Positions 6,882 to 25,605 of a DNA stretch of 28,254 bases are shown here, one piece after another. A program made the translations under genes and the position numbers. The notes under the pieces were generated by a model, which did not search any database, was not told the DNA's origin, and was given only the letters and a program-made list of their open reading frames with translations. Source of the stretch: Candidatus Cloacimonadota bacterium (lineage in GTDB: Bacteria > Cloacimonadota > Cloacimonadia > JGIOTU-2); contig JACNFI010000095.1 of NCBI GenBank assembly GCA_014384665.1, positions 1 to 28,254 of the forward strand, read 5' to 3'. Position 1 is the stretch's first letter. Every line of letters begins with the position of its first letter.

Positions 6882-6925
6882 GAATTTGATTGTAGATTAA
6901 TTAAGATTTCAATTTAGGAGATAAA

Positions 6926-8052: not shown

Positions 8053-8280
8053 ATGTTATCATGGTTGATTTGGATTGTTATTGGTCTTATACTAATTTTT
8101 ATTGAAATTTTTGCTCATAAGTTTATATTCTTAAGTATAGGAATTTCAGCAGTTATTACAGGAATAATAAATATATTAGGGATTAAGAATTTGATTGTAT
8201 TATTAATTATTTTTTTAATAATAGTATGTTTGAATATTCTTTTTTTAAGAAAGTTAATTACAAAATATTTAATACATTAA
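8053..8280 (+). CDS. small hydrophobic membrane protein (75 aa), hypothetical
   Basis: An ORF with two or three predicted TM helices. GAAGG lies 8 nt upstream of the ATG. It sits between the two related palindromic elements E1 and E2. Beyond ORF integrity and RBS spacing there is no evidence that it is expressed. Confidence 0.35.
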   Translation: MLSWLIWIVIGLILIFIEIFAHKFIFLSIGISAVITGIINILGIKNLIVLLIIFLIIVCLNILFLRKLITKYLIH

Positions 8281-8314: not shown

Positions 8315-8515
8315 ATGAGTTCACTATAAAAACCCGTCCGTCTGGGCGCCGAGACCGACGAAACACACGAAATACTCGAAAATGGTTTGTGTAAATTCAG
8401 CCCGTCTGCCCGTCTCCCGATATATCGGGAGACGAGACAGAGGCGCCGAGCCTGATAATATACGCATGTATTTTTCGCGTATTTCGTGGGAGATACCTTT
8501 TTATAGTGAACTCAT
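8315..8515. mobile_element. MITE-like 201-bp nested palindromic element (E2) with perfect 18-bp terminal inverted repeats
   Basis: The TIRs are ATGAGTTCACTATAAAAA (8315-8332) and TTTTTATAGTGAACTCAT (8498-8515). Internal features are the inverted repeats CACGAAATAC/GTATTTCGTG, a central perfect hairpin CGTCTCCCGATATATCGGGAGACG, and duplicated GGCGCCGAG cores. It is GC-rich relative to its surroundings and shares a 21-nt core with E1. Confidence 0.6.
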
Positions 8516-13070: not shown

Positions 13071-14711
13071 ATGAAACAAAAATATGAAGAAATCGTGAAC
13101 AAGGTTGTCAAAAAACATCCAGAGAGAAAAGAAAAATTTATCTCCGGTTCTTCAGAGATTGTTAAACGGCTCTATACACAGGACGATATTTCTGCGATGG
13201 ACTCTGATGAAGATATTGGCTATCCAGGATTTTATCCATATACCCGTGGGGTTCAGCCAACAATGTATCGTGGTCGCCTCTGGACAATGCGGCAGTATGC
13301 TGGCTTTGGTACCGCTGAAGAATCTAATAAGAGATATAAATATCTTCTTTCGCAAGGACAAACAGGACTTTCCGTTGCATTTGACCTTTGTACACAACTC
13401 GGCTATGATTCTGACCATCCGATGAGCAAAGGTGAAGTTGGCAAAGTAGGTGTGGCAATTGACACACTTGCTGATATGGAAACCCTTTTTGATGGAATTC
13501 CATTGGATAAGGTTTCAACTTCAATGACGATAAATGCTCCTGCTACAATTCTATTAGCAATGTATATTGCAGTTGCAGAAAAACAAAAAGTTCCAGTAAA
13601 TAAACTCAGAGGAACTATTCAAAATGATATTCTAAAGGAATATACAGCAAGAGGAACATACATTTTTCCTCCGAAACCTTCAATGCGTCTGACTACTGAT
13701 ATTTTCCAATATTGTTCGGAAAATATTCCGAATTGGAACACCATTTCTGTTTCTGGATATCATATTCGCGAAGCAGGGGCAACAGCAGCACAGGAAGTTG
13801 CTTTCACACTTTCAGATGGTATTGCTTATGTTGAAGCTGCGATAAATGCTGGATTAGATGTAGATGATTTTGCTCCACGAATATCTTTCTTCTTTAATGC
13901 ACATAATGACCTTCTTGAAGAAGTAGGAAAATTTAGGGCAGCAAGAAGATTATGGGCAAAAATTATGAAAGAGCGTTTCAATGCAAAAAATCTGAAATCT
14001 TTAATGCTCCGATTTCATACTCAAACTGCTGGTTCTACACTTACAGCACAACAATTAGATAATAATATTGTTCGTGTTGCAATTCAAACTCTGGCTGCTA
14101 TACTTGGAGGAACTCAATCTTTACATACAAATTCCAGAGATGAAGCTTTAGCTCTTCCAAATGAGGATTCAGTAAGAACTGCTCTCCGAACTCAGCAAAT
14201 CGTTGCTTATGAAAGTGGAGTTGCTAATACCATTGACCCATTAGCCGGTTCTTATTATATTGAAAGTATAACTAATAAGATTGAGAAAAAAGCAATGGAT
14301 TATATAAAAAAAATTGATGAGTTAGGCGGTATGATTGAAGCTATTGAAAAGGGTTATGTTCAAAAACAGATTCAGGATAGTGCATATAAATATCAAAAAC
14401 AAATTGAGAATGATGAAAGAATTATTGTAGGTGTTAATAAATTCGTTTCAAATGAAAAGCCTGAACAAGATATTTTAAAAGTAAATGAGCAAATTGAAAA
14501 ATATCAAATTGAAAAATTGAAAGAGGTAAAAAAACAAAGAGATAATGATAAAGTAAAAAGGTCCTTAGAAAGAATAAGACAAGATGCTAAATCATCAAAT
14601 AATCTTATACCTGCATTTCTTGACGCAATTAAAACATATACTACACTTGGAGAAATATGTGATGTTTTACGAAATGAATTTGGTGAGTATAAAGAAAAAA
14701 ATGTTTTCTAA
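13071..14711 (+). CDS. acyl-CoA (methylmalonyl-CoA-type) mutase, large-subunit catalytic TIM-barrel domain only, no B12-binding domain
   Basis: The 546-aa translation has the conserved N-terminal [50 protein letters not shown] block of MCM-alpha/Icm large subunits. The ORF ends before any Rossmann-like cobalamin-binding domain (no DxHxxG). This is the split-mutase architecture. Confidence 0.8.
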
Positions 14712-14840: not shown

Positions 14841-15740
14841 ATGGGTATAATAGTCATCATTATAATTCTGATTGTGCTATATTGGCAGGCAAAGAGTATT
14901 TTCCATGATAAAGCTAACCTGGCAAAAACTATTATTATTTTGCTAATTATAATTGGAGTTTTATCACAAACGATTAAAGTTGTAGAACCAGGTAAAGTAA
15001 AAGTGCAGGTGCTGTTCGGAAAGGTGCAAAAAAGGATTTTGCACAGCGGACTTAATTTTGTAAATCCGTTAATAACTATGCGTACTATGAGTGTTCGCAC
15101 AGAAGCTTATACAATGAGTGCTGCACGATATGAAGGTAGAGTCCGAGGCGACGATGCAATAAAAGCATTAACTTCTGATGGTATCATACTGCCTATGGAT
15201 ATTACATGCTTGTTTCATTTAATAGCTGATAAAGCACCAGAGGTATATGAAAAAATTGGCTATGATTATGAATCAAAGATTATCCGACCTGAACTCAAAA
15301 CGATTATCCGACAAGTTATTAGTAACTTTAAAATGGAGCAGGTATATTCTTCTGCAAGAGATACTATTGCTCTAAGAATGAAAGAAGAAGCTCATAAGAA
15401 ATTATTTCCAAGAGGAATATTTATTGAGGATGTTCTTTTAAGAAATGTTACTCTTCCAAAACAGGTAGAAACAGCAATAAATGCAAAAAAGACTGAGCAA
15501 CAAAATTTTGAAAAGATGCTCTATACGCTACAGAAAGAAGGAAAGGAAAAAGAGAGAAAGATTATCGAAGCAGAGGGTATCAAAATTGCCAATCAAACTA
15601 TTGCAGAAGGTCTAACAGAAAGTTATCTTAGATGGTATCAAATTGATATGATGAAAAAATTGATTGATAGCCCGAATAACACGATTATCTTTATTCCAAT
15701 GGGACAGGAGATTACACCGATAATTAATACAGGGAAATAA
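14841..15740 (+). CDS. SPFH/band-7 (stomatin/prohibitin-like) membrane protein
   Basis: The 299-aa translation has an N-terminal TM segment. The SPFH core (KVVEPGKVKVQVLFGKVQ…, IRPELKTIIRQVISNFKMEQVYSSARDTIALRMKEEAHKKL) and a C-terminal coiled-coil are typical of the family. An RBS (AGGAGGAAAAA) precedes the ATG. Confidence 0.8.
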   Translation: MGIIVIIIILIVLYWQAKSIFHDKANLAKTIIILLIIIGVLSQTIKVVEPGKVKVQVLFGKVQKRILHSGLNFVNPLITMRTMSVRTEAYTMSAARYEGRVRGDDAIKALTSDGIILPMDITCLFHLIADKAPEVYEKIGYDYESKIIRPELKTIIRQVISNFKMEQVYSSARDTIALRMKEEAHKKLFPRGIFIEDVLLRNVTLPKQVETAINAKKTEQQNFEKMLYTLQKEGKEKERKIIEAEGIKIANQTIAEGLTESYLRWYQIDMMKKLIDSPNNTIIFIPMGQEITPIINTGK

Positions 15741-15850
15741 GGAAATAGAGGTATAAGGGAAAAATCAAAAGGCAAAATGTAAAAGGCAAAATTAAAAGTT
15801 ATAGGGCAGAAATTTTTAATATATTGAAATTTTATTCTTTCCCTGTAAAT
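15632..15850 (+). repeat. direct repeat copy A: last 35 codons of the SPFH gene plus about 110 bp downstream; partner at 16637-16857
   Basis: 15632-15850 and 16637-16857 align end to end at roughly 85% identity. Copy B still encodes WYQIDMMKKLIDSPNNTIIFIPRGQDITPIINTGK*, against native …FIPMGQEITPIINTGK*. Confidence 0.8.
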
Positions 15851-15903
15851 TTATTGCATAGGAATTTCCTTTTTTTCTGACACATAAGTTTTTGGTAGAT
15901 AAC

Positions 15904-15927
15904 TCGTAACCCGTAACCCGTAACTCG
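15904..15927. repeat. tandem heptamer CGTAACC ×3 (TCGTAACCCGTAACCCGTAACTCG)
   Basis: Seen directly in the sequence, in the region carried in with the bioY insert. Confidence 0.6.
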
Positions 15928-15954
15928 AATAGCATTTTTTATCAGTGAATATCT

Positions 15955-16010
15955 GTGTTTACCCCGTGTAATATAAAACGCTTCACTATTACACGGGGTG
16001 AATCTGTGGC
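15955..16010 (+). promoter_or_regulatory. GC-rich hairpin GTGTTTACCCCGTGTAATAT-N13-TATTACACGGGGTGAATCTGTGGC, about 30 nt upstream of bioY; possible operator or hairpin-repeat family member
   Basis: It is a 12-bp perfect stem. The flanking ACGGGGTGAAnnnGTGGC motif recurs at 27249-27266 (reverse orientation) and 27436-27452. Confidence 0.4.
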
Positions 16011-16039
16011 TAATATTTTCTCGGCGGTGAAAGGAAAAA

Positions 16040-16636
16040 ATGGAAAATCTAAAAAGAATGAACACAATGGCTGAAGCTTGTTTTCCAAGAATTGGAATTT
16101 TGAGCAATCCGATAATTTATAACTTGCTATTGATTTTAGGTGGCAGTCTCTTTATCTCCTTGACCGCACAATTAGCATTTCGTTTGCCTTTTACTCCAGT
16201 GCCAATAACAATGCAGACATTTGGAGTGCTTTTAATTGGACTTACATATGGTAGCAAGAGAGGTGCTTTAACATTGGTTGCATACCTTGCAGAAGGAGCA
16301 ATGGGCTTACCAGTATTTGCGAATGGTGGGTGTGGAATTGCTTACCTTTGCGGTCCCACAGGTGGATATTTGTTTGGATTTGTAGTTGCAGCATTTGTTA
16401 TTGGATACTTGGCAGAAAATGGCTGGGATAGAAAAATGTTGACTGCATTTGCAGCAATGTTGATTGGCACAATTGTTCTATTTGCTTTTGGTTTGCTCGG
16501 GCTGAGCAGATTTGTTGGTGAAGATAAATTATTTGTCGCAGGATTGATTCCGTTCATTCCAGGTGAGATTTTTAAGAGCATTCTTGTGGCTATTTCATTG
16601 CCAACTGCATGGAAGGTTCTCATAAAAAAATTTTAA
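16040..16636 (+). CDS. bioY: biotin transporter BioY (ECF-type S component)
   Basis: The 198-aa polytopic protein has the BioY hallmark PVPITMQTFGVLLIGL and GPTGGYLFGF motifs. A strong RBS (AAAGGAAAAA) precedes the ATG. It is visibly more GC-rich than its neighbours and is flanked by the 15632/16637 direct repeats. Confidence 0.85.
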   Translation: MENLKRMNTMAEACFPRIGILSNPIIYNLLLILGGSLFISLTAQLAFRLPFTPVPITMQTFGVLLIGLTYGSKRGALTLVAYLAEGAMGLPVFANGGCGIAYLCGPTGGYLFGFVVAAFVIGYLAENGWDRKMLTAFAAMLIGTIVLFAFGLLGLSRFVGEDKLFVAGLIPFIPGEIFKSILVAISLPTAWKVLIKKF

Positions 16637-16857
16637 ATGGTACCAAATTGATATGATGAAAAAACTGATTGATAGTCCGAATAATACGATTATCTTTATC
16701 CCGAGGGGACAAGATATTACACCAATAATTAATACTGGAAAGTAGTATATAAAAGGAAATAAGGAGATAGGGATATAAGGATATAAGGCAAAATGTAAAA
16801 GGCAAAAAATTAAGAAGCAGAAATTATTAATATAGAGAAGATTTATTCTTTTACCCT
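16637..16857 (+). repeat. direct repeat copy B (diverged duplicate of the SPFH 3' end plus downstream spacer)
   Basis: See copy A. It includes the in-frame remnant of the 35 C-terminal SPFH codons with its own stop at about 16747-16749. Confidence 0.8.
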
Positions 16858-16880
16858 ATTAGATTTCAATTTGAGGTAGA

Positions 16881-18068
16881 ATGATAAATATGAAAAAGAA
16901 AAAAATTATATTCATTATTGTATTATTCTCTATGTTTTCTACATGCACTTTTTCTTATGCTTTATATGAATTTACTTGTATTTTTACTTTATACAACACT
17001 TCTGCAACCAATTTAGCTTTTGGACTTGATTCTGGTACAGCAAATATCTGGCACAAAAATCCCTTAGATATTTGGAGTAATCCAGCAAAACTTGGGTATT
17101 ATAAAGGATTTGCTTTTGGATACTCACATGATAAATGGTTTGATGATCTTAATTTGGACATTTATCACAACTCATCCTATTTAACATTTGGATGGAAGGG
17201 TTTAGGCATTTTACTGCCTTCTCTCAATAATTCAAGCAAATTTGGAACCACTATGGATTATGGTGAACAAGAAGTATATGATGCACATGGAAATCTTTTG
17301 AGGAAGTTTAATTCCTATGAGACCTGCAGTCAATTTGCTTTTGGAATTAATTGTCTTGAATTCATTAATTATTTTTCTAAAGAAAATCAATTATTCAATA
17401 ATCTGCGAAAATACTCGGAACTTTCATTAGGATTAAGTATTGATTATATACGAAGTAATCTGCTGCCTTATATTTCTGATTCCCTGAAAATAAATAAAGG
17501 AACTGGGTTATCAAATAATATTGGCGCACTAATAAAAATAACTCCTTTAAATATATATGATAGTGGTATAAGGCTTGATATTACTGCAGGCATAAATATA
17601 GTTAACATATTTAAATCAGACATGACTTATAAATACAATAATGGAGATAAGGAGAAACAACCATTGCCTTATGGTAATAGAACTGGAATCGCTGGAAAAT
17701 TATCATTTATAAATATTAAGAACCTCGCAGATGAATATCCTTTGCTTTTTGATATTTCTAAATATCTTTTATCAATCTATGCAAGTTATGATAATTCTAA
17801 ATATGGTGATAATCCTTCTATCTGGGGTAAAGGAATTGAATTAACTTTGCTTGATATATTTTCTTGGCGATTTGGAGAATGCACAGATAAATATGGACAG
17901 GAGATTGGAGATTGTGAAGGTTGGGGTATTAATCTCAATTACAAAAATATTGTTAGTTTTCAATATAATTATGTTGAGTTTCCTTTAGGAGAGTCGCAAA
18001 CTAAGCAAAAAAAAGAAGATATATCATTTGGTATAGATATAATTAAACTCATAAATGAGTTTAAATAA
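16881..18068 (+). CDS. hypothetical secreted / outer-membrane-like protein
   Basis: The 395-aa translation has an N-terminal signal-like segment (KKKKIIFIIVLFSMFSTCTFSYA). Alternating aromatic/glycine-rich beta-strand-like segments run through the protein. Its family is unknown. The true start may be the second ATG at 16890, which has better spacing to GAGGT. Confidence 0.6.
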   Translation: MINMKKKKIIFIIVLFSMFSTCTFSYALYEFTCIFTLYNTSATNLAFGLDSGTANIWHKNPLDIWSNPAKLGYYKGFAFGYSHDKWFDDLNLDIYHNSSYLTFGWKGLGILLPSLNNSSKFGTTMDYGEQEVYDAHGNLLRKFNSYETCSQFAFGINCLEFINYFSKENQLFNNLRKYSELSLGLSIDYIRSNLLPYISDSLKINKGTGLSNNIGALIKITPLNIYDSGIRLDITAGINIVNIFKSDMTYKYNNGDKEKQPLPYGNRTGIAGKLSFINIKNLADEYPLLFDISKYLLSIYASYDNSKYGDNPSIWGKGIELTLLDIFSWRFGECTDKYGQEIGDCEGWGINLNYKNIVSFQYNYVEFPLGESQTKQKKEDISFGIDIIKLINEFK

Positions 18069-18073
18069 AATCT
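18006..18073 (+). repeat. direct repeat copy A: last about 20 codons of gene 16881-18068 plus 5 nt downstream; partner at 18511-18577
   Basis: CAAAAAAAAGAAGATATATCATTTGGTATAGATATAATTAAACTCATAAATGAGTTTAAATAAAATCT matches CAAAAAAAGAATGATCTATCATTTATTATAGACATATTTAAATTCATAAATGAGTTAAAATAAAATCT. Copy B still reads …DLSFIIDIFKFINELK*, against native …DISFGIDIIKLINEFK*. Confidence 0.75.
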
Positions 18074-18153
18074 AAAGTTATTATAGTTTTTTATTTTCTA
18101 TGAAATATGCCATTTATATTTTTACATTAGAATTCTAATAAGTGAGATAAATT

Positions 18154-18456
18154 ATGAAAACAGTCTCAAAGAGTACCACCTTTAAGAATTTATTAAAAGA
18201 TTTGGCAATTACAGATGTGTCAAGGATAATAAGGGATACTTTGCTCACCGAAATTCTTTGCAAGATTTCAGATTTTTCTGATGAAGTAAAACATTTTGAG
18301 GAAAAATATGGCAAAAATCTAAGTGACTTCATTAAAGAATATGAATCTAATGATGAAGATTTTGAAAAATATGATGACCTGATGGCTTGGGAATTTGCTC
18401 AACAAGGAAAACAATATTGGGAAACAAAGCTAAAGGAAGCCAAGAGTGTTTTATAA
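18154..18456 (+). CDS. hypothetical 100-aa acidic cytoplasmic protein (cargo of the second tail-duplication cassette)
   Basis: An intact ORF lying between the two copies of the 18006/18511 repeat. It has no recognisable catalytic motif and is rich in charged residues (…DFSDEVKHFEEKYG…EDFEKYDDLMAWEFAQQGKQYW). It may be a small antitoxin-like or regulatory protein, but this is unverified. Confidence 0.45.
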   Translation: MKTVSKSTTFKNLLKDLAITDVSRIIRDTLLTEILCKISDFSDEVKHFEEKYGKNLSDFIKEYESNDEDFEKYDDLMAWEFAQQGKQYWETKLKEAKSVL

Positions 18457-18510
18457 AATAATTGAAGAGTACGCAAATATTATTCACAGATATTCTGTAA
18501 AAAACAAAAA

Positions 18511-18577
18511 CAAAAAAAGAATGATCTATCATTTATTATAGACATATTTAAATTCATAAATGAGTTAAAATAAAATC
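18511..18577 (+). repeat. direct repeat copy B (diverged duplicate of the 3' end of gene 16881-18068)
   Basis: See copy A at 18006-18073; identity is roughly 80%. Confidence 0.75.
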
Positions 18578-18617
18578 TCTGCGTTCTCTGCGTCTTCGCG
18601 GTGAGTGAAAGGAACAA

Positions 18618-19847
18618 GTGGGCAAAACTATAGTTGAAAAAATCATTCAATCACATTCAGATGAAAAAGTAAAAGCAGGCAAGATTGTCTGGATGAAGTT
18701 AGATATCAGAACTGCACGAGATTTCGGCGGTCCAAATGTAGTAAAAAATCTTGAGAAATACTATCCAGATGAACGATTACCAGATGTAGAAAATATACTT
18801 TTTACTTTTGATTGCGTTGTACCTGCAAAAACCATTCCTTATGCAAACAATCAGCAAATCTGCCGTGAATTTGCAAAAAAGCAAGGTATAAGAGTTTTTG
18901 ATGTTGATGCTGGAATTGGAACTCATATTTTAATGGAAAAAGGATTTGCACGACCGGGCAGAATTCTTGTAGGTACAGATAGTCATTTTAACATTCTAGG
19001 TGCTGTTGGAGCTTTCGGACAGGGGATGGGGGATCAGGATATTGCTTTTACTTTTTGCACAGGAAAAACCTGGTTTGAAGTACCAGAAACAATCAAAATC
19101 AATCTAAAAGGAAGATTTACTTTTCCTACAACTGGTAAAGATTTAGTTCTTTTCGTTTTGCGAAAATTAGGAAGTAAAGGTGCATTGGGGAAATGTATTG
19201 AATATTATGGAGAATGCCTTCAAGATTTGAGTTTCGCAGAATATATTACTCTATGCAGTATGATGACAGAGATGGGCGGTATCGTAGCTTTTCCTTATCC
19301 AAATGAAAATGTAACAAATTGGCTTATTAAAAGAACAGGAGAAAATCCAGAATTTATTTTTGCTGATAGAGATGCAAAATATTGCAATGAAATTGAAATT
19401 GATGTTACTGATTTACAACCGCAAATTGCCTGTCCGCCAAAACCAGATAATGTTAAAGAGGTTTCAAGGTTAAAATGTTTGAAGGTTAATTCAGTTTTTG
19501 TTGGCTCTTGCACAAATGGTAGATTTGAAGATATGCTGCAAGTCTCTGAAATCCTGAAAGGAAACAAGGTTGCACAAGGAGTTATGTTGAGAATTGTTCC
19601 TGCAACAAAAGAAGTTTATGGTCAAATGCTTAAAGAAGGATTAATCCAGGTTCTCTATGATGCAGGTGCAATTATTTCAAACCCAGGATGTGGTGGATGT
19701 GCATCTGGTCAAATTGGTATGACTGGCAAAAGAGAAGTGCAGATTTCAACTGCTAATCGCAATTTTTTAGGAAAACAGGGAGACGGAGATACCTATCTTG
19801 CCAGTCCTGTTACTGCAGCTTTTGCAGCCCTAAAGGGAAAATTGTAG
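18618..19847 (+). CDS. leuC: 3-isopropylmalate dehydratase / homoaconitase-type large subunit (short aconitase-family LeuC)
   Basis: The 409-aa translation has a GTG start after AAAGGAACAA. It has aconitase-family motifs, including the cysteine ligands of VGSCTNGR and GCGGCASGQ. Its short size fits the archaeal-type LeuC/HACN. Confidence 0.85.
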   Translation: MGKTIVEKIIQSHSDEKVKAGKIVWMKLDIRTARDFGGPNVVKNLEKYYPDERLPDVENILFTFDCVVPAKTIPYANNQQICREFAKKQGIRVFDVDAGIGTHILMEKGFARPGRILVGTDSHFNILGAVGAFGQGMGDQDIAFTFCTGKTWFEVPETIKINLKGRFTFPTTGKDLVLFVLRKLGSKGALGKCIEYYGECLQDLSFAEYITLCSMMTEMGGIVAFPYPNENVTNWLIKRTGENPEFIFADRDAKYCNEIEIDVTDLQPQIACPPKPDNVKEVSRLKCLKVNSVFVGSCTNGRFEDMLQVSEILKGNKVAQGVMLRIVPATKEVYGQMLKEGLIQVLYDAGAIISNPGCGGCASGQIGMTGKREVQISTANRNFLGKQGDGDTYLASPVTAAFAALKGKL

Positions 19848-19848
19848 A

Positions 19849-21060
19849 ATGAAAAATAAAACTTTTTTTTCAATCATCATTTTAGTATCTTCAATCTTTA
19901 TTATACTTTCTGGATGCACAAAAAAACAATTAGAAGAAGTCCATGAGTTCATTAACATTGCCGGAAAGATAAGAAAAGGTGAATCACTGTTTTCTACCTT
20001 ACTTGAAAAAAATGTTGATAGGAAAGAAGCATTCAAAATCACAAAATCTCTTAATAAATATTTTGACCTCAGATATACTCACCCAAACGATAGTTTTGCA
20101 ATACAAATTGATACTTTGGGACAGGTTCAGAGATTGGAATATTTCCCGAATAAAATTGAAAAATATATCGTAATCCGAGACACATTAGACGATTTCATCA
20201 CGCATAAAAAGGAAGTTGAATTATCAAAAGAAATTTTTGTCTTGTCTTCTCAGATTCAATCATCAATTTATCAATCAATGGTAAATCAGGGAGTTAGTCC
20301 AGAATTGGTAATGAATTTCAGTGATATTTTTCAGTGGGATATTGATTTTTTTATAGACCCAAGAGAAGGAGATAGTTGCAAACTTGTTTATGAAGCATTT
20401 ACCAACAATGGCAAAATTCTGAAATATGGCGATATTCTTGCAGCGTCATATAAAGGAAAAAATTTTGACCTTACTGCTTACTACTTTTTTGATGACGGCA
20501 AGAATGCAAACGGATATTTTGATAAAGATGGCATATCATTTCAGAAAGCATTTCTTAAATCCCCATTAAATTATTCATATATCAGTTCATACTTTTCTTA
20601 TGCACGATACCATCCAATTTTGAAAAAGGTCTGTCCTCATTATGGAATTGATTATGCTGCTCCTTATGGAACTCCAATTGTTGCTTCAGCTGATGGAAAA
20701 GTTGTTTTCAAAGGTTGGAATAATGGCTTTGGTCATTGTATAAAAATCAGACATAAAAATAGCAGATATGTTACTTTATATGGACATTTAAGTGGATATG
20801 CTCGTGGAATTTATGTGGGCGCAAATGTCAAACAGAAACAACTGATTGGATATGTGGGTTCAACTGGCTGGTCAACAGGTCCTCATCTTGATTACAGAAT
20901 CTATGATAATGGACGAGCAATTAATCCACTGAAATTGAAGAATGTATCAGGTCCCCCAATTCCGAAAAAAATAAAAAAAGATTTCATGAAAATTGTATTA
21001 GCAATGAATGAAATGTTGGAGAATGATATTTTAGAAAATAAAAAAAATCAAAAAAATTGA
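19849..21060 (+). CDS. M23 family metallopeptidase lipoprotein (murein DD-endopeptidase-like)
   Basis: The 403-aa translation has a lipoprotein signal peptide ending ILSGC. The C-terminal LytM/M23 domain carries HYGIDYAAPYGTPIVA…GHLSGY…GSTGWSTGPHLDYRI (HxxxD and HxH zinc motifs). Its start is 1 nt after the leuC stop. Confidence 0.85.
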   Translation: MKNKTFFSIIILVSSIFIILSGCTKKQLEEVHEFINIAGKIRKGESLFSTLLEKNVDRKEAFKITKSLNKYFDLRYTHPNDSFAIQIDTLGQVQRLEYFPNKIEKYIVIRDTLDDFITHKKEVELSKEIFVLSSQIQSSIYQSMVNQGVSPELVMNFSDIFQWDIDFFIDPREGDSCKLVYEAFTNNGKILKYGDILAASYKGKNFDLTAYYFFDDGKNANGYFDKDGISFQKAFLKSPLNYSYISSYFSYARYHPILKKVCPHYGIDYAAPYGTPIVASADGKVVFKGWNNGFGHCIKIRHKNSRYVTLYGHLSGYARGIYVGANVKQKQLIGYVGSTGWSTGPHLDYRIYDNGRAINPLKLKNVSGPPIPKKIKKDFMKIVLAMNEMLENDILENKKNQKN

Positions 21061-21093: not shown

Positions 21094-21600
21094 ATGCAGA
21101 AAAATATGAAACTAAACGGCAAAATATGGTTGATTACTAACAATAATAATCTCATAAACGATATTGACACAGATATGATTTTCCACAATAGATATTTAGC
21201 AATCACAGATATAAATCAGATGGGACAATATGCATTTGATAATCTTAATGGATGGAAAGATTTTGCAAAGGAAAGTGAGAAAGGTGATATCATCATTGCT
21301 GGGAAAAATTTTGGTTCTGGTTCATCCAGACAGCAAGCAGTTGATTGCTTTATCTCGCTTGGAATTCAAGCAATTTTGGCTGAATCTTTTGGTGCTATCT
21401 ACAAACGAAATGCAATAAATTCAGGATTACCAATCTTACAAATTAAAAAAATAAATTTACAAAAATTTAATCAACGAGAAAAAATTGTAATTAATTTAGT
21501 TGATGGCTCAACTAATTCGGAATATTTAGAAATAGAGCCTTTTTCAAAGGTTCAGCTGGATATTTATCAATCAGGAAATTTATTCTCCTATGGAAAGTAA
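21094..21600 (+). CDS. leuD: 3-isopropylmalate dehydratase small subunit (aconitase swivel domain, LeuD-like)
   Basis: The 168-aa translation has the GKNFGSGSSRQQA…AESFGAIYKRNAIN motifs typical of LeuD. An alternative start at 21106 (MKLNGKIW…) is possible. Confidence 0.85.
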   Translation: MQKNMKLNGKIWLITNNNNLINDIDTDMIFHNRYLAITDINQMGQYAFDNLNGWKDFAKESEKGDIIIAGKNFGSGSSRQQAVDCFISLGIQAILAESFGAIYKRNAINSGLPILQIKKINLQKFNQREKIVINLVDGSTNSEYLEIEPFSKVQLDIYQSGNLFSYGK

Positions 21601-21659
21601 CGCAATTGTCTCAATTGCGACACAAACCCCCGATTTCTCGGGGGGGACGATTGTGTTAC
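21596..21659 (+). repeat. composite hairpin H1 directly after the leuD stop: GTAAC-[CGCAATTG tct CAATTGCG]-[ACACAA a CCCCCGA tttc TCGGGGG ggacga TTGTGT]-TAC
   Basis: Seen directly in the sequence. The same structure recurs at 21992-22040, but there it lacks the inner CCCCCGA…TCGGGGG mini-hairpin. It could act as a terminator or recombination site, or it may be a nested hairpin insertion. Confidence 0.65.
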
Positions 21660-21662
21660 AAA

Positions 21663-21716
21663 ATTCTATTTGATATTCATCAAGCAGGAAATTTGTTCAC
21701 TTATGGATGAAAGAAT
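21663..21716 (+). repeat. degenerate duplicate of the leuD 3' tail (encodes FDIHQAGNLFTYG*, against native LDIYQSGNLFSYGK*)
   Basis: It aligns to 21556-21600 at roughly 75% identity. A second, more degenerate copy lies at 22041-22078. Confidence 0.65.
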
Positions 21717-21738
21717 TTTTTAAAGGAGGTTTTTAGAA

Positions 21739-21969
21739 ATGTTAAATACAGTTAGAGGTATATATGAAAATGGGGTAATAAAACCTTTTGAAAAAGTAAG
21801 AGATAAAGAAAGGTCAGAGGGCATAATTATCTTTTTAGATACTGCCAAAGAGAAGAAATCAGCTTTCTTTTCCTCGGCCGGCTCATGGAAAGATGTAGAT
21901 ACCGAGGTCTTGAAAAAACAAATATACGAAAGCAGAAAAATTTCTAATAGAAGAAAAATTCAGCTATGA
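21739..21969 (+). CDS. DUF104 (AF2212-like) family putative antitoxin, orphan
   Basis: The 76-aa translation starts MLNTVRGIYENGVIKPFEKV…EGIIIF, matching the conserved N-terminus of the DUF104 antitoxin-like family that is usually paired with PIN/VapC toxins. The RBS is AAAGGAGG. No adjacent PIN-domain ORF is present. Confidence 0.5.
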   Translation: MLNTVRGIYENGVIKPFEKVRDKERSEGIIIFLDTAKEKKSAFFSSAGSWKDVDTEVLKKQIYESRKISNRRKIQL

Positions 21970-21978
21970 TTTCATTCC

Positions 21979-22078
21979 TTCTCCTATGGAAAGTAACGCA
22001 ATTGTCTCAATTGCGACACAATCGGAGACGATTGTGTTACAAAATCCAGATGATTTATCAGGCAGGAAATTTGTTTAA
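21979..22078 (+). repeat. second copy of the cassette-boundary module: leuD tail fragment (TTCTCCTATGGAAAGTAA), hairpin H3 (21992-22040), then a degenerate tail
   Basis: TTCTCCTATGGAAAGTAACGCAATTGTCTCAATTGCGACACAA is identical to 21580-21622. H3 is the simple form …ACACAATCG gaga CGATTGTGT TAC. The following 22041-22078 parallels 21660-21716. An ATG of a cargo gene follows each module. Confidence 0.7.
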
Positions 22079-22080
22079 AT

Positions 22081-22418
22081 TTGGGAAAATATAGTATGAT
22101 TAGTAAAGAGCAGATTCATGAAATTGTACAAACTATTGTAAAAGGCTACAATCCAAAGAAAATAATCCTTTTTGGTTCGTATGTTAGTGGAAATCCTTCT
22201 GAAGATAGTGACTTAGACATGTTTCTTGTGAAAGAGAGCAAACTTCCAAGATATAAACGAGCAAGGCAGGTTCATAAATTATTTGACCCCTTGTGCGATG
22301 GATATAATCGTGTACAACACAAATGAAATAAAAAAATGGAAAGATGTCAGAAATTCTTTTGTATACGATGTTCTAAAAAATGGGAAAGTGTTATATGAAC
22401 AAACTGGTTGAAGAGTGG
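22081..22418 (+). pseudogene. mntA: MNT-type (minimal) nucleotidyltransferase antitoxin gene, interrupted by a +1 frameshift
   Basis: The N-terminal 81 aa contain the nucleotidyltransferase motif ILFGSYVSGNPSEDSDLDMFLV (GS…DxD). The frame then ends at 22326. Reading +1 from the CCCC run at about 22288 gives …PCAMDIIVYNTNEIKKWKDVRNSFVYDVLKNGKVLYEQTG*, the canonical MNT C-terminus. The shift sits in a C4 homopolymer, so this is a genuine frameshift or a sequencing error. Confidence 0.65.
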
Positions 22419-22776
22419 ATTCATAAAGCAGAAAATGATTTTTTAGATGCAGAAAATAATTTGAAAAGTCAGCAGATACCTACTGATACAGTCTGTTTTC
22501 ACTGCCAACAAGTAGCAGAAAAATATCTGAAAGCTTACTTGATTTCAAGAAACAAATCCTTTCCCCAAATTCATAATCTCATTCATCTGATGTAATTATG
22601 TAGAGAACTGGACCCAATTTTTTTGAAGTTAAAAGATGAACTAATAATTCTAAATGACTATGCAGTAGAAATTCGCTATCCTGACGACTGGTTGTGAACC
22701 AACCATTGAAGAAGCCAATGAAGCATTGGAATTAGCAAGAAAAGTAAAAGATTTTATATCTATAAAAATAAAATAG
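22380..22776 (+). pseudogene. hepT: HEPN-domain toxin gene (HepT-like), interrupted by two frame changes
   Basis: The first 71 aa (…AENDFLDAENNLKS…CFHCQQVAEKYLKAYLISRN…IHNLIHLM*) form the HEPN N-terminal helices. Downstream in other frames the reading continues ELCRELDPIFLKLKDELIILNDYAVEIRYPDDW (the Rx4-6H-like RYPDD HEPN motif), then EPTIEEANEALELARKVKDFISIKIK*. The start overlaps the end of the MNT gene, as in mntA-hepT pairs. Confidence 0.6.
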
Positions 22777-22797: not shown

Positions 22798-25605
22798 GTG
22801 AAAATTTGTATAAAACTCTTTTTTCTACTTACAATCCTATCACTCTCCTTTTCAGGTAATCTAATTGCTAAGCTACTACCTAATGATGAACCTGTAACAG
22901 AGCTTAAAGCAGAAGATGTGCCAAATGATGATGGAGGTGGATTAATCATAAGTTGGAAACCTCTTCACAAGGATAAGAAAATTATTGAATATCGTATTTA
23001 TCGTGGTGTAACACCTGATACTCTGTTTTATATTGGTAAGATACCGGTAAATGTAAAAACAGGTGTTATCGGTGATACAATGAGATTTACTGATCAAAGC
23101 TGGGTATTGTTTGTTGATGCCACTTCTCCTGCTGAATTGAGAAGAGAGAAAGGGCAAAGAAAAGGTGAGATAGGTTATGATGTTTTATATCGTAAAGTTC
23201 CAAGAGATATGAAGGTCTATGGACCTTTATTGAAAGAGTATAGAATTCTATGTGTAATTCCTTTAAAACAATATTTATACAAAACAAAGATGAAGGAATT
23301 TACTGAAATTGACACAACCAAAGAAGGTAAAGTGGATACCACCTCAACTACTTTAGCTGGTTTAAAGCTACGACAATTTAAATATCTTCTAACTAAACAG
23401 ATTATCGGGAAAAATTATTATTATGCTGTGCAAGCAGTAAACCTAAATAGAAGGACTTCTCCACTATCTGAAATTGTGGCAGGTGTAACTACAAATGACC
23501 CACCAGAAAAGTTGAAAGAGTTTTACGCAGTTGCATATTTAGATACAGAGGAGATGCGCTTTGAATGGTCACTACCTACTTTTGCTGAAGACCAGAAACA
23601 ATTCAATATTTATCTTTATGATGAAAATGGTGAAAAACATAGAATATTTACCCGTGCTGATGCTTACCCATATACACCACAAACAAATGCAATTGTTACA
23701 TTTGATTCAATTAAAGTTAGATTTCCTGAATTTAATTCAACAAATATGAAATGGTATAGATTCAATATTGGGGAACAGGATAGGGCTAATCAGGAAACAC
23801 TTGCAAAAGATGAACCAATCCCAGCTGAAATAGTTGAGAATTCTATGGATGTTTTACCACCTGTTCCTCAATATTTCACTGTGGAAGATAATCCCAATGA
23901 TAAAGGTGATCAAATCAAAATATTCTTTGATAAACCCTATTTTGGTATTTCTAAATTGACTTATAATAACGATTTTACAAAATTATTTGTAAGTTACTTT
24001 ATTAGAGATAATGAATTATTTAAGGTTTACAGAATTACAATTCAGATAAATGGAACAAAACAAACTGAGTATGTACTTGATGATAAAGCAAAATTCAAAG
24101 TTGATTGGGATTACCAAGAGCCAATGACAATTTCTGCTACATTTCAGTGCAGAAACAAAGCTAAAAGATTATATAAAGATGTGACATTACCTGAAGATTA
24201 TTCTGTATCTCATACATTTTATTATGATGAAGAAAGGTCATTAGTTGAATTGGTCCCAACTGAATCAAAAAATTATAGTTTTCAAATATATAAACATAAC
24301 AAATCTAGTGATGTATATCGCTTTCCAAAACTTTTATCTTATATGGAAAGAGAATATCTTGATAGAATTAGATATGAGGAAGTTGAATTTCGCGGTAATC
24401 CAAAATATTGTTTAGATGACAATCGGCTTTATGTTTCAACTTATTTAAGTATTGAAAATTGGGAAGAACAAGAACCATATTATACAATGGCAATTTACCT
24501 TGAGCAATTAGAGAAAATGAATAAGGAAATGAAAGATGAAATTGATAAATTACAGAAAGAATTAGAAGAAACGAGCGATAAGGATAAAGTTGATAGTTTG
24601 AAAACATTAATTAAGAATTATACGAATTTAATTGAAGATAAACCTCCGATTGTTGAACTTGCAAACGAGCAAACAACTAATAGAGATAGAATGAAAATTT
24701 TAGACAAACGACATTGTGAGAGTAAGCGAACTTTTAAATATTTTATAAGAAAGACTGATGGGAAAGGGCATTTTGTTGATACAAAGGTTTATACTAAAAA
24801 GGATGGTGACCAGTATTTCTTCCCTCAGTCAAATTGGTTTAATAAAAACGAAATTATTACTCTCATTGCTGTTTTGATTTTTGGAGCATTAGTATATTTT
24901 ATGATTAGGGCAGCTAAAAAGGGTAAGAAGCTATACATAAGACCTATTGCAGGTATTCAAGAAATAGATACTGCAATAGGCCGTGCCACAGAAATGGGCA
25001 GGCCAATTCTATTCGTGCCAGGGATAAGTGGAATTAGAGATGTTGCAACTTTAGCGGGACTGGCAATTTTAGCTAAGGTAGCCAAAAAAGCTGCAGAGTA
25101 TGATACAAAAATTCTTGTTCCTATAAGAGATTATATAGTTCTTCCAATTGCTCAGGAGATTGTAAAAGAAGCCCATTACGAAGCAGGGCGTCCAGATACT
25201 TATGACAAAAATAGTGTATTCTTTATTTCCATTGAACAGTTTGCTTTTGTGTCTGGGGTTAACGGAATTATGATAAGAGAAAAAACAGCAACGAACTTCT
25301 ATATGGGAATGTTCTATGCAGAATCACTTCTTTTGACAGAAACTGGAAGTATGACAGGTGCTATACAAATCGCTGGCACAGATGCTATTACCCAGCTTCC
25401 ATTCTTTATTACAACTTGTGACTATACATTAATGGGAGAAGAACTTTATGCTGCAAGTGCCTATCTGTCCAAACAACCACTAATACTTGGAACTTTGAAA
25501 GCTCAGGATTATGTAAAACTTTTGATAGTAATTGCCGTAGTGTTTGGAACCCTTCTTTCAACAATTCATTTAACATTTTTTATGAACTGGTTTCCAACTA
25601 AATAG
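22798..25605 (+). CDS. large surface protein (935 aa): signal peptide, FN3-like repeats, a large unassigned ectodomain, a TM helix, an about 200-aa conserved-looking C-terminal domain and a terminal TM helix
   Basis: GTG start after AAAGGAGCAAAAAA. The signal peptide is KLFFLLTILSLSFSG. FN3-like hallmarks are IEYRIYRGVTPDT and KNYYYAVQAVNLN. A TM helix is predicted around IITLIAVLIFGALVYFMI. The C-terminal region (…RPIAGIQEIDTAIGRATEMGRPILFVPGISGIRDVATLAGLAILAKV…) is followed by a final hydrophobic helix. No family is recognised. Confidence 0.75.
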   Translation: MKICIKLFFLLTILSLSFSGNLIAKLLPNDEPVTELKAEDVPNDDGGGLIISWKPLHKDKKIIEYRIYRGVTPDTLFYIGKIPVNVKTGVIGDTMRFTDQSWVLFVDATSPAELRREKGQRKGEIGYDVLYRKVPRDMKVYGPLLKEYRILCVIPLKQYLYKTKMKEFTEIDTTKEGKVDTTSTTLAGLKLRQFKYLLTKQIIGKNYYYAVQAVNLNRRTSPLSEIVAGVTTNDPPEKLKEFYAVAYLDTEEMRFEWSLPTFAEDQKQFNIYLYDENGEKHRIFTRADAYPYTPQTNAIVTFDSIKVRFPEFNSTNMKWYRFNIGEQDRANQETLAKDEPIPAEIVENSMDVLPPVPQYFTVEDNPNDKGDQIKIFFDKPYFGISKLTYNNDFTKLFVSYFIRDNELFKVYRITIQINGTKQTEYVLDDKAKFKVDWDYQEPMTISATFQCRNKAKRLYKDVTLPEDYSVSHTFYYDEERSLVELVPTESKNYSFQIYKHNKSSDVYRFPKLLSYMEREYLDRIRYEEVEFRGNPKYCLDDNRLYVSTYLSIENWEEQEPYYTMAIYLEQLEKMNKEMKDEIDKLQKELEETSDKDKVDSLKTLIKNYTNLIEDKPPIVELANEQTTNRDRMKILDKRHCESKRTFKYFIRKTDGKGHFVDTKVYTKKDGDQYFFPQSNWFNKNEIITLIAVLIFGALVYFMIRAAKKGKKLYIRPIAGIQEIDTAIGRATEMGRPILFVPGISGIRDVATLAGLAILAKVAKKAAEYDTKILVPIRDYIVLPIAQEIVKEAHYEAGRPDTYDKNSVFFISIEQFAFVSGVNGIMIREKTATNFYMGMFYAESLLLTETGSMTGAIQIAGTDAITQLPFFITTCDYTLMGEELYAASAYLSKQPLILGTLKAQDYVKLLIVIAVVFGTLLSTIHLTFFMNWFPTK

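What the first reader, a model, noticed from the sequence alone, without database searches (positions are those of the whole stretch)
18006..18577. Second tail-duplication cassette: 100-aa acidic ORF flanked by about 68-bp diverged repeats of the upstream gene's last about 20 codons
The 3' end of gene 16881-18068 (…DISFGIDIIKLINEFK* plus AAATCT) is repeated at 18511-18577. The copy still translates to …DLSFIIDIFKFINELK*. The 18154-18456 ORF sits between the two copies. This is the same architecture as the bioY insertion 1.3 kb upstream and the leuD-tail modules 3 kb downstream. That makes three in a row, which points to a shared mechanism rather than coincidence.
Basis: seen in the sequence. 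Interest (0 to 1): 0.7.

Follow-up and report, generated by a model that had tools for sequence, protein, structure and literature searches.

The report
Decayed toxin-antitoxin cassette with duplicated gene tail
The 100-aa ORF is the surviving antitoxin-like gene of a small TumE-type toxin-antitoxin cassette that was inserted between an outer-membrane protein gene and leuC in a Cloacimonadota genome, duplicating about 75 bp of the upstream gene's end; this footprint ("insertion with long target duplication") was previously described for restriction-modification genes.

Summary
Window 17998-18073 and 18502-18578 are a 77-nt direct repeat (84% identity, E 1.6e-14).

In close relatives, the 100-aa gene is followed, with an 11-nt overlap, by a 122-124-aa TumE/DUF6516 toxin gene. 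Here only 79 of its 369 nt remain (18446-18524). The insert is therefore a decayed two-gene toxin-antitoxin module with an orphan antitoxin-like gene.

Three related Cloacimonadota MAG contigs have the empty junction, with one tail and no cassette. Copy 2 is collinear with the native tail plus intergenic region. There is no integrase, tRNA, attC-like structure or reverse transcriptase.

Cassette dS between lineages is 0.15-0.22, against 0.8-1.0 for the flanking genes. The breakpoints lie inside the repeats. The cassette has therefore moved between diverged lineages by recombination in the duplicated tails.

The closest known pattern is "insertion with long target duplication" (Nobusato 2000; Furuta 2010), here with non-restriction-modification cargo. 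How the duplication arose is inferred, not shown.

Interest is moderate.

The parts
16881..18068 (+). Target gene: 395-aa putative outer-membrane protein, weakly PorV/PorQ-like, with a signal-peptide-like N-terminus.
   Evidence: ORF list. No Pfam hit. NCBIfam NF033709 PorV_fam, E 6e-10, 39 bits, below the 90-bit cutoff. Orthologues lie next to leuC in L010-L013.
17998..18073 (+). Repeat copy 1: the functional last about 71 nt of the PorV-like CDS, including the stop, plus 5 nt (AATCT).
   Evidence: It folds as a hairpin (AAACTCAT/ATGAGTTT, z -4.7) in this lineage only.
18074..18153 (+). Cassette 5' non-coding leader (80 nt), presumably carrying the promoter and ribosome-binding site of the toxin-antitoxin module.
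   Evidence: Homologous (61-62 of 80 nt) to the same segment in the L008, L009, L010 and L031 cassettes. Absent from the empty sites.
18154..18456 (+). Intact 100-aa gene: the upstream partner of TumE, a putative TumA-type antitoxin, now orphaned.
   Evidence: About 99 homologues, almost all exactly 100 aa, across many phyla. 224 clusters at 50% identity with E <= 1e-3. Paired with a PF20126 TumE gene in L008, L009, L015, L016, L030 and L031-34 (Pfam-called) and, in L023, L027 and L028, with a 118-121-aa ORF that begins with the TumE N-terminal motif. dN/dS about 0.26. AF2 model with four helices, pLDDT 90.7. No family or fold hit.
18446..18499 (+). TumE toxin gene 5' stub: GTG start overlapping the antitoxin stop by 11 nt, and the first 18 codons (VFYKIIEEYANIIHRYSV).
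   Evidence: Translation. Alignment to intact TumE in L008, L009, L010 and L031.
18500..18524 (+). TumE 3' stub ending in the original TGA (18522-18524). Only 79 of 369 nt of the gene survive, an internal deletion of about 290 nt that is out of frame.
18502..18578 (+). Repeat copy 2: the orphaned resident tail of the PorV-like gene. Its left part also encoded the last codons of TumE (gene fusion at the junction).
   Evidence: Collinear with the L011 tail plus intergenic region plus leuC head (77% over 163 nt, E 4e-30). Cloacimonadota TumE C-termini are 5-9 aa longer than those of relatives.
18579..18617 (+). Native PorV-like to leuC intergenic leader, L011-type.
18618..19847 (+). Downstream gene: aconitase-family large subunit (3-isopropylmalate/homoaconitate dehydratase, 'leuC').
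   Evidence: Pfam PF00330 E 8e-78. NCBIfam NF001614 E 7e-131.

Best explanation
The segment 18074-18501 is the decayed remnant of a two-gene type II toxin-antitoxin cassette. The cassette consisted of a 100-aa TumA-type antitoxin-like gene followed by a TumE/DUF6516 toxin gene. It sits between a PorV-like outer-membrane protein gene and leuC in a Candidatus Cloacimonadota genome.

Shown:
- The insertion is polymorphic. Relatives have an empty junction with a single tail.
- It is bracketed by a duplication of about 77 nt covering the last about 71 nt of the PorV-like CDS plus 5-8 nt.
- Copy 2 is contiguous with the native intergenic region and leuC.
- Copy 1 keeps the PorV-like ORF intact.
- The toxin ORF ran into copy 2.
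- In this lineage the toxin was then destroyed, by an internal deletion of about 290 nt here and by a premature stop plus a small hairpin insertion in the sister allele L029.
- The antitoxin-like gene stayed intact under purifying selection.
- The cassette is 4-6 times younger in synonymous divergence than the genes around it. It occurs in two different genomic backgrounds, each of which also has an empty-site relative. The similarity breaks fall inside the two tail copies.

Inferred:
- The first insertion was an illegitimate, microhomology-guided event that returned upstream of its departure point. Candidate routes are template switching, fill-in of a staggered break, or a one-sided homology-facilitated join. 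This produced a long target duplication with no element-encoded recombinase.
- The two tail copies then served as short homology arms. Through them the cassette was passed between lineages by homologous recombination. The topology is that of a single-crossover (Campbell-type) integration of [tail + cassette] into a resident tail, which regenerates the duplication each time.
- The duplication is tolerated because it preserves both the upstream ORF and the native leuC leader.
- The orphan antitoxin may persist as protection against incoming TumE copies.
For: Identity of the cassette: the 100-aa gene is followed, with an 11-nt overlap, by a PF20126 TumE gene in L008/L009 (92% identical antitoxin; TumE E 1.5e-23). 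The same pairing occurs in L015, L016, L030 and L031-34 (Pfam-called TumE) and, by ORF listing, in L023, L027 and L028. TumE-TumA is an experimentally validated toxin-antitoxin superfamily with the toxin downstream of diverse partners (PMC10584680). Toxin remnant. Sister allele L029 with full-length but broken TumE. Empty sites: L011, L012 and L013 have PorV-like directly followed by leuC. Collinearity: W copy 2 plus intergenic region matches L011 tail plus intergenic region, and L009 copy 2 plus intergenic region matches L013 (84% over 146 nt, E 1.6e-36). Age: dS for the antitoxin gene is 0.15 (W-L009) and 0.22 (W-L010), against 0.82-0.89 for the PorV-like gene and 0.92-1.03 for leuC. Mosaicism: W copy 2 left part is 28/30 identical to L009 copy 2, but the right part is only 31/43, and the downstream intergenic regions are of different types. 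W copy 1 right part is 38/41 identical to L008, but the left part only 21/35. W copy 2 plus intergenic region plus 48 nt of leuC is 95% identical to L031, although the cassette non-coding part is 78%. No recombinase: Pfam scan of the large ORFs found none; five ORFs had no Pfam hit and could not be classified. No tRNA. No Rfam family. No conserved hairpin in the target. Junction microhomology: TumE ...CAAGAAAAGAA against PorV-like CAAGAAAAAGAA, and TCTAAA(T) on the left side. Precedent: insertion with long target duplication, 46-420 bp, without mobility genes, sometimes with gene fusion at the junction (PMC2853133).
Against: The event that created the duplication cannot be reconstructed. All filled alleles share the same right junction, so there is effectively one founding event, and no intermediate or donor state was found. 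The mosaic signals rest on 30-45-nt segments in AT-rich sequence and on different reference lineages for the two copies. Selection on copy 1 (coding) and gene conversion between copies could mimic some of them. High conservation of the antitoxin gene could in principle reflect selection, although dS, not only dN, is low. A trans-acting recombinase encoded elsewhere in the genome cannot be excluded from a 28-kb window. Toxicity and neutralisation for this TumE subfamily and its 100-aa partner have not been tested. All sequences are MAG or metagenome contigs. L010 and L012 come from the same bin, which therefore mixes two populations.
Confidence: 0.7

Rival explanations
1. There was no true target duplication. 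In a one-sided homology-facilitated illegitimate recombination after DNA uptake, a donor fragment carrying [PorV-like 3' part with its own tail + toxin-antitoxin module] was anchored by homology in the PorV-like gene. Its far end was joined by microhomology about 77 nt upstream of the recipient's stop codon. On this view copy 1 is donor DNA and copy 2 is recipient DNA.
For: The 15-18% divergence between the copies equals the typical divergence of this tail between lineages (72-87%). The right junction lies in an 11-12-nt A/G-rich microhomology. Long target duplications are reported mostly in naturally competent species. The mosaic alleles in L012, L029 and L031 show frequent exchange between lineages.
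Against: It requires a donor in which the toxin-antitoxin module already lay directly after a PorV-like gene without a duplication, and none was found. PorV-like bodies next to the cassette are as diverged as the rest of the genome (dS 0.7-0.9), so later transfers did not carry the gene body. Competence genes were not examined.
Confidence: 0.2
2. The cassettes are mobilised by a dedicated site-specific recombinase acting in trans, either integron-like or a tyrosine/serine integrase that targets gene 3' ends. On this view the tail copies are attL/attR.
For: Direct repeats of a gene's 3' end flanking an insert are the classic footprint of integrase-mediated insertion. Several cassettes stack at the leuD tail, as tandem islands do at one attB. 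A structured 48-nt double-hairpin element with GTAAC...GTTAC ends sits at three junctions.
Against: No recombinase gene was found in 28 kb and none lies within the 437-nt insert. No tRNA. The repeats are 84% identical with only a 13-nt exact run. Inferred crossover positions differ between lineages, at the stop codon in L009 and at about -45 in W/L008. Duplication lengths range from about 50 to 255 nt at different sites. The target tail has no conserved secondary structure. The double-hairpin element is absent from the toxin-antitoxin cassette and the bioY cassette.
Confidence: 0.08
3. Copy 2 is the last remnant of a tandem PorV-like paralogue. Its body was deleted or overwritten when the toxin-antitoxin module arrived, so gene duplication preceded insertion and was independent of it.
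For: Tandem PorV-like paralogues exist. L010 carries a 405-aa and a 404-aa copy in series, upstream of the same cassette.
Against: Copy 2 is collinear with the single tail plus intergenic region of the empty-site genomes. The same footprint occurs at Band7/bioY, at the leuD tail and at the leuC head, where no paralogues are seen. The remnant would have to end by chance exactly where the toxin ORF ends.
Confidence: 0.05
4. The repeat is a diversity-generating-retroelement-like variable/template repeat pair, or else a chance or assembly artefact.
For: A repeat of a gene's 3' end with a small ORF in between superficially resembles a DGR variable repeat, accessory gene and template repeat.
Against: The mismatches are of all types, not adenine-specific. 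No reverse transcriptase was found. The repeat includes the stop codon and 5 nt beyond it. Chance is excluded. Artefact is excluded by independent contigs from other samples and assemblers.
Confidence: 0.01

Closest known systems
Insertion with long target duplication (Nobusato et al. 2000, Gene 259:99, pmid 11163967; Furuta, Abe & Kobayashi 2010, NAR, PMC2853133)
   Same: A short gene unit with no transposase or integrase is flanked by direct repeats longer than 30 bp, both of which align to a single copy in an empty-site genome. Repeat lengths are long and variable: 46-420 bp in the literature, and about 50-255 bp here. Repeats often overlap a flanking gene's 3' end. Gene fusion at the junction has been reported. 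The cargo is an addiction-type (post-segregational killing) module.
   Different: All described cases carry restriction-modification genes, and the authors linked the process to DNA breakage by those systems. Here the cargo is a toxin-antitoxin module, and at the sister sites a bioY transporter gene, an AF2212-like gene and a 48-62-nt non-coding hairpin. The repeats here are old (84% identical) rather than near-identical. The phylum is Cloacimonadota. A full-text search found no toxin-antitoxin example described under this name.
TumE-TumA toxin-antitoxin superfamily (Durairaj et al. 2023, Nature, PMC10584680; Pfam PF20126/DUF6516)
   Same: Relatives of this cassette encode a PF20126 toxin immediately downstream of, and overlapping, a small partner gene. 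This is the consensus bicistronic arrangement of the superfamily.
   Different: The window no longer has the toxin. The 100-aa helical partner matches no Pfam, NCBIfam or PADLOC model and no solved structure. The validated examples are gammaproteobacterial pairs from another subcluster.
Minimal mobile elements of Neisseria: cassettes exchanged by homologous recombination of conserved flanking genes after transformation (from my own knowledge, not read here)
   Same: Small cassettes without their own mobility genes occupy a fixed intergenic site and are swapped between lineages by recombination in the flanks.
   Different: Minimal mobile elements have no duplication of the flanking gene end. 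Here the crossovers lie inside arms of about 75 nt that are themselves duplicated.
Integron gene cassettes and tandem islands at gene or tRNA 3' ends
   Same: Promoter-less or small cassettes, often toxin-antitoxin modules, stack at one site. The repeated sequence lies between cassettes.
   Different: There is no IntI or integrase, no attC-type conserved imperfect palindrome, no fixed crossover point, and the repeat is the host gene's own coding tail.

Membership tests
Insertion with long target duplication (criteria of Furuta et al. 2010) | Direct repeats longer than 30 bp flank the insert. | tested here: met
   77 nt, 84% identity, E 1.6e-14.
Insertion with long target duplication (criteria of Furuta et al. 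2010) | An empty-site genome has similarity on both sides and a single copy of the repeated sequence. | tested here: met
   L011, L012 and L013 have PorV-like directly followed by leuC, with one tail.
Insertion with long target duplication (criteria of Furuta et al. 2010) | The insert is shorter than 20 kb and no mobility gene lies in or beside it. | tested here: met
   The insert is 437 nt here and about 720 nt when intact. No integrase or transposase Pfam hit was found in the window; five ORFs had no Pfam hit. No tRNA.
Insertion with long target duplication (criteria of Furuta et al. 2010) | The cargo includes restriction and modification genes. | tested here: not met
   The cargo is a TumE-type toxin-antitoxin module. 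The pattern is the same but the cargo class differs.
TumE-TumA toxin-antitoxin system | A toxin gene with the TumE/DUF6516 domain (PF20126) is present. | tested here: not met
   In the window only 79 of 369 nt remain, with no Pfam hit. The feature is met in the orthologous cassettes L008, L009 and L031 (E 1.5e-23).
TumE-TumA toxin-antitoxin system | Bicistronic arrangement with a small partner gene immediately upstream of the toxin. | tested here: met
   An 11-nt overlap of stop and start is conserved in W (stub), L008, L009, L015, L016, L030 and L031.
TumE-TumA toxin-antitoxin system | The toxin arrests growth and the partner neutralises it. | not testable with these tools
   Shown only for six gammaproteobacterial pairs (PMC10584680). 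Repeated loss of the toxin with retention of the partner (W, L017-22, L029) fits an antitoxin role.
Integron cassette | An attC imperfect palindrome (RYYYAAC ... GTTRRRY) lies at the cassette end, with an IntI integrase and attI nearby. | tested here: not met
   Copy 2 and the empty-site tails are unstructured (z -0.6 to +0.6). No integrase in 28 kb.
Integrase-mediated integrative element at a gene 3' end | An element-encoded or linked recombinase, with an identical att core at a fixed crossover point. | tested here: not met
   No recombinase found. The longest exact run is 13 nt. Crossover positions differ between lineages.
Diversity-generating retroelement | A reverse transcriptase gene, and template/variable repeat differences confined to adenines. 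| tested here: not met
   No reverse transcriptase found. The 11 mismatches are of eight substitution types.

The most novel reading that the evidence does not exclude
Duplicated gene ends act as portable 'address tags'. Small cassettes without any recombinase would loop out through the flanking repeats, travel between cells, and re-enter the same gene end in species-level-diverged Cloacimonadota by a single homologous crossover. This would build integron-like cassette arrays at the ends of housekeeping genes, such as leuD with four tail copies. It would also show that insertion with long target duplication is a host recombination process independent of restriction-modification cargo.
Probability: 0.2. 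Interest if true: 0.7.

Novelty: new variant of a known kind. Interest (0 to 1): 0.42.

Why it matters
The mechanism of insertion with long target duplication has been unknown since it was described in 2000, and it has been tied to restriction-modification systems. This locus shows the same footprint at least four times within 7 kb, with three kinds of non-restriction-modification cargo: a toxin-antitoxin module, a vitamin transporter gene and a non-coding hairpin. Several alleles coexist in public metagenomes: empty, intact, pseudogenised and deleted. This argues that the process does not depend on the cargo's own DNA-cutting activity. It also offers a natural population in which circular intermediates and empty sites could be looked for in reads. 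In addition, the locus documents the life cycle of a TumE-type toxin-antitoxin module (arrival, spread between lineages, toxin loss, orphan antitoxin retention), and it assigns a widespread but unannotated 100-aa family as a TumE partner.

Tried and rejected
- **DGR reading:** rejected (no reverse transcriptase).
- **attC or att hairpin in the target:** only the W copy 1 folds. Copy 2 and the empty-site tails do not.
- **tRNA/tmRNA or known RNA family at the site:** none.
- **Duplication extending further into the intergenic region:** local alignment of the cassette 5' leader against native intergenic regions was not better than shuffles (p 0.28-0.87). Only TCTAAA(T) is shared.
- **Sigma-70 promoter scan:** tried to test whether the tail carries the leuC promoter. 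It was uninformative in this AT-rich DNA (33 hits against 35 expected).
- **Flanking duplication as a property of the toxin-antitoxin family:** no. Loci from other phyla (L024, L025, L027, L028) have no flanking repeats. L015 has purine-rich microsatellite repeats and L017 has a 134-nt promoter repeat, which are different features.
- **Fold and sequence searches with the 100-aa protein:** no Pfam, NCBIfam or PADLOC hit. No PDB sequence hit. No PDB fold hit with E below 1. The afdb50 library was unavailable.
- **Vector search:** no homologue in plasmid, phage or IMG/VR collections.
- **Empty site within the same strain:** an exact-protein look-up of the PorV-like protein found only the filled context.
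- **Metagenome scan with the antitoxin:** only six loci, none from Cloacimonadota.
Full report
**Source and gene map.** The 100-aa protein is annotated in NCBI as a hypothetical protein of a Candidatus Cloacimonetes MAG. The same locus occurs in GCA_016783705.1 and in ENA and Logan assemblies. Around the finding the genes run as follows:

| Coordinates | Gene |
|---|---|
| 13071-14711 | methylmalonyl-CoA mutase |
| 14841-15740 | Band7/SPFH |
| 16040-16636 | BioY |
| 16881-18068 | 395-aa protein, weakly PorV/PorQ-like |
| 18154-18456 | the 100-aa ORF |
| 18618-19847 | aconitase-family large subunit ('leuC') |
| 19849-21060 | M23 peptidase |
| 21094-21600 | 'leuD' |
| 21739-21969 | AF2212-like ORF |
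| 22081-22595 | degraded MNT and HEPN genes |
| 22798-25605 | DUF6754 protein |

**Observation.** The repeat is real. Window 18003-18073 matches 18508-18578 at 85% ungapped. With gaps, 17998-18073 matches 18502-18578 over 77 nt at 84%, E 1.6e-14. Copy 1 is the true end of the PorV-like ORF, and copy 2 still reads ...NDLSFIIDIFKFINELK*. Five independent contigs (L001, L003-L006) carry the identical arrangement over the stretch compared; a sixth, L002, matches up to 18595 and then diverges. Chance and assembly artefact are therefore excluded.

**What lies between the copies.** The 100-aa protein has about 99 homologues, nearly all exactly 100 aa. They occur in Aminicenantes, Nitrospirota, Thermodesulfobacteriota, Moduliflexus, Hakubella and other groups. 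A profile search finds 224 clusters at 50% identity. The protein has no Pfam, NCBIfam, PADLOC or PDB match. It is predicted with high confidence (pLDDT 90.7) as a four-helix protein with no significant fold match.

Its context is informative. In the closest relatives (L008 and L009, 92% identical) a 122-aa gene with the Pfam TumE domain follows, overlapping by 11 nt (PF20126, E 1.5e-23). The same pairing recurs in L015, L016, L030 and L031-34, where a Pfam TumE gene is called, and in L023, L027 and L028, where a 118-121-aa ORF with the TumE N-terminal motif follows. TumE (DUF6516) is the toxin of an experimentally validated, translation-targeting toxin-antitoxin superfamily, and the toxin typically lies downstream of diverse small partners (PMC10584680). 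The 100-aa ORF is therefore best read as a TumA-type antitoxin. This assignment is inferred from context; it has not been tested.

**The toxin remnant.** In the window a GTG at 18446 overlaps the antitoxin stop by 11 nt and encodes VFYKIIEEYANIIHRYSV, the first 18 residues of TumE. The sequence then jumps to the last about 25 nt of the gene, ending in the original TGA at 18522-18524. In all, 79 of 369 nt survive, and they are out of frame. A low-coverage sister allele from the same sample series (L029) has identical copy 1 and cassette leader. Its TumE is full-length but broken by a premature TAG and a small GC-rich hairpin insertion. L031-34 carry intact antitoxin and TumE genes. L017-22 (another phylum) again keep the 100-aa gene with only a few TumE codons. 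Toxin loss with antitoxin retention is thus recurrent. The antitoxin gene here evolves with dN/dS of about 0.26.

**It is an insertion with a target duplication.** Three Cloacimonadota contigs (L011, L012, L013) have the PorV-like gene directly followed by leuC, with one tail and no cassette.

- W copy 2 with its downstream sequence is collinear with the L011 tail, intergenic region and leuC head (77% over 163 nt, E 4e-30).
- L009 copy 2 with its downstream sequence is collinear with L013 (84% over 146 nt, E 1.6e-36).
- Copy 1 is followed by an 80-nt leader found only in cassette-bearing genomes.
- The left junction lies 5-8 nt after the stop codon. TCTAAA(T) is shared with the L013-type intergenic region, and no further homology was detected.
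- The right junction lies inside the toxin ORF. Cloacimonadota TumE proteins end ...IIAPKETKTRKE*, which is 5-9 residues longer than relatives. Those extra codons are PorV-like tail sequence read in another frame...CAAGAAAAGAATGA against the tail's CAAGAAAAAGAAGAT, an 11-12-nt microhomology.

**The cassette has moved between lineages.** Synonymous divergence of the antitoxin gene is 0.15 (W-L009) and 0.22 (W-L010). For the flanking PorV-like gene it is 0.82-0.89, and for leuC 0.92-1.03. The cassette sits in two backgrounds that differ in the type of intergenic region, and each background has an empty-site relative: W with L011, and L008/L009 with L013/L012.

Similarity breaks fall inside the repeats.

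- W and L009 copy 2 agree at 28/30 in the left part but only 31/43 in the right part, and the downstream sequence is then unalignable.
- W and L008 copy 1 agree at 38/41 in the right part but only 21/35 in the left part.
- L009 copy 1 switches at the stop codon.
- W and L031 share copy 2, the intergenic region and 48 nt of leuC at 95%, although their cassette leaders are 78% identical and their PorV-like genes are different types.

These are the signatures of homologous exchange with crossovers in the short tail copies at variable positions. Integration of [tail + cassette + tail] into a genome with one tail is topologically a single-crossover (Campbell-type) event and regenerates the duplication. 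These inferences rest on short segments and should be treated as suggestive.

**What it is not.** No integrase, transposase or reverse transcriptase was found in the window; five ORFs had no Pfam hit and so could not be classified. There is no tRNA and no Rfam family. The target has no conserved hairpin: only W copy 1 folds (z -4.7), while copy 2 and the empty-site tails do not. The mismatches are of eight substitution types. The flanking duplication is not a property of this toxin-antitoxin family elsewhere. The family was not found on plasmids, phages or viral contigs.

**Sister events.** L011 is also the empty site for the other two loci.

- Band7 is followed directly by the PorV-like gene in L011. 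In W, bioY with its own leader sits between two copies of [Band7 tail + intergenic region] (15606-15852 and 16612-16866, 261 aligned nt, E 1e-44). The BioY ORF ends inside copy 2.
- At leuD, L011 has leuD overlapping an intact MNT-HEPN pair. W has four tail copies. The most distal, tail-d, is collinear with the L011 tail plus MNT start.
- Proximal to tail-d lie a 48-62-nt double-hairpin element (twice) and an AF2212-like gene, bracketed by a 129-nt duplication. New material has therefore been added next to the gene body repeatedly.
- L012 and L031 show the mirror image. In both, the first 48 nt of leuC are duplicated around the same double-hairpin element.
- Duplication lengths of about 50, 77, 129 and 255 nt, with three kinds of cargo, argue for a host recombination or repair route rather than a cargo-encoded or ruler-type enzyme.

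**Comparison with known systems.** The footprint meets the published criteria for 'insertion with long target duplication': repeats longer than 30 bp, an empty site with one copy, and no mobility genes (PMC2853133; Nobusato et al. 2000, cited). The exception is that the cargo is not a restriction-modification system. That literature reports repeats of 46-420 bp, overlap with 3' gene ends, gene fusion at junctions and enrichment in naturally competent species. The mechanism remains unknown. A full-text search found no toxin-antitoxin case described under that name. I therefore file the finding as a new variant of a known kind. The toxin-antitoxin module itself is a new, decayed member of the TumE-TumA superfamily with an unannotated partner family.

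**Verdict.** The finding is real and explained in outline. It is not a novel kind of element. Its value lies in extending long-target-duplication insertion to non-restriction-modification cargo, and in offering a polymorphic natural system for studying the process.

**Confidence by claim.**

| Claim | Confidence |
|---|---|
| Decayed TumE-type cassette inserted with a target duplication | about 0.9 |
| Horizontal spread by recombination in the tails | about 0.65 |
| Founding event being a microhomology-guided illegitimate join | about 0.4 |

Noticed in passing
window 15606-15852 and 16612-16866 (insert 15853-16611, bioY 16040-16636): bioY with its own leader is bracketed by a duplication of about 255 nt covering the Band7 gene's last about 135 nt plus most of the Band7 to PorV-like intergenic region (76% over 261 aligned nt, E 1e-44). 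The BioY ORF terminates inside copy 2. L011 has Band7 directly followed by the PorV-like gene, so it is an empty site.
   Followed up: partly
window 21542-22090: There are four copies of the leuD tail. The order is tail-a (functional), double-hairpin element, tail-b, AF2212-like ORF 21739-21969, tail-c, double-hairpin element, tail-d, then MNT (frameshifted, 22081-22326) and HEPN (in-frame stops, 22380-22700). Tail-d plus MNT is collinear with L011, where leuD overlaps an intact 106-aa MNT and 131-aa HEPN pair. The array has grown at the gene-proximal end.
   Followed up: partly
window 21597-21659 and 21993-22040; L012 7307-7354; L031 about 1017-1065: A 48-nt quasi-palindromic element has ends GTAACRCAATYG...CRATTGYGTTAC. 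It folds either as two hairpins or as one long hairpin (DNA fold z -5.3 and -7.3). It always lies exactly at a junction between a duplicated gene end and the next segment: the leuD tail in W, and the first 48 nt of leuC in L012 and L031. It has no Rfam match. Its role is unknown; it could be a MITE-like element, a recombination scar or a recombination site.
   Followed up: partly
window 21627-21647; L029 608-628; window about 8408-8428; window 15962-15998: Tiny GC-rich hairpins of the form CCCCGAT-N3-5-ATCGGGG occur as apparent insertions. One lies inside the first double-hairpin element, one inside the TumE pseudogene of L029 (absent from L008, L009 and L031), and one in the rpsT upstream region. 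A related hairpin, CCCCGTGTAATA...TATTACACGGGG, lies in the bioY leader. They may form a family of miniature palindromic insertions.
   Followed up: no
window 7925-7963 and 8337-8373: A GC-rich 39-nt direct repeat (CCGTCTGGGCGCCGAGACCGA..., 85% identical) flanks the unannotated 75-aa membrane-like ORF 8053-8280, upstream of rpsT. A weaker repeat, 6860-6970 against 8163-8274 (67%, E 1e-4), may be a further gene-end duplication around the 316-aa ORF 6926-7876.
   Followed up: no
window 15940-16012; L009 1722-1757; L012 7218-7255; L013 7196-7235: A shared leader motif, TATCAGTGAATATC(G/T)GTG..AATC(G/T)GTGGC, precedes bioY in the window and leuC in L009, L012 and L013. A second motif, C(T/G)GTGGTGA(G)AAA...ATG, precedes leuC in W, L011, L012 and L031 and bioY in W. 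These interchangeable leader modules appear to be shuffled together with the cassettes. A (GTAACCC)3 tandem repeat lies at 15906-15925.
   Followed up: no
L010 1748-4241 and 4325-4627: This relative carries two tandem PorV-like paralogues (405 and 404 aa, about 65% identical to each other's orthologues) upstream of the same cassette. Its antitoxin gene has a premature stop at codon 12. L010 and L012 come from the same MAG bin (CSMAG_1562), although they represent alternative versions of one locus, so the bin mixes two populations.
   Followed up: partly
L001 1727-2915 and L003 1033-2221: In two assemblies that are otherwise identical to the window across the cassette region, the PorV-like gene is called as two ORFs (83 and 317 aa). 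This implies a frameshift or stop variant of the target gene in part of the population.
   Followed up: no
L002 from the position equivalent to window 18596; L004 contig end at 18595: Strain-level identity to the window ends abruptly 18 nt downstream of copy 2. L002 diverges there, and an NCBI contig breaks at the same base. This indicates a population-level recombination breakpoint right beside the cassette.
   Followed up: no
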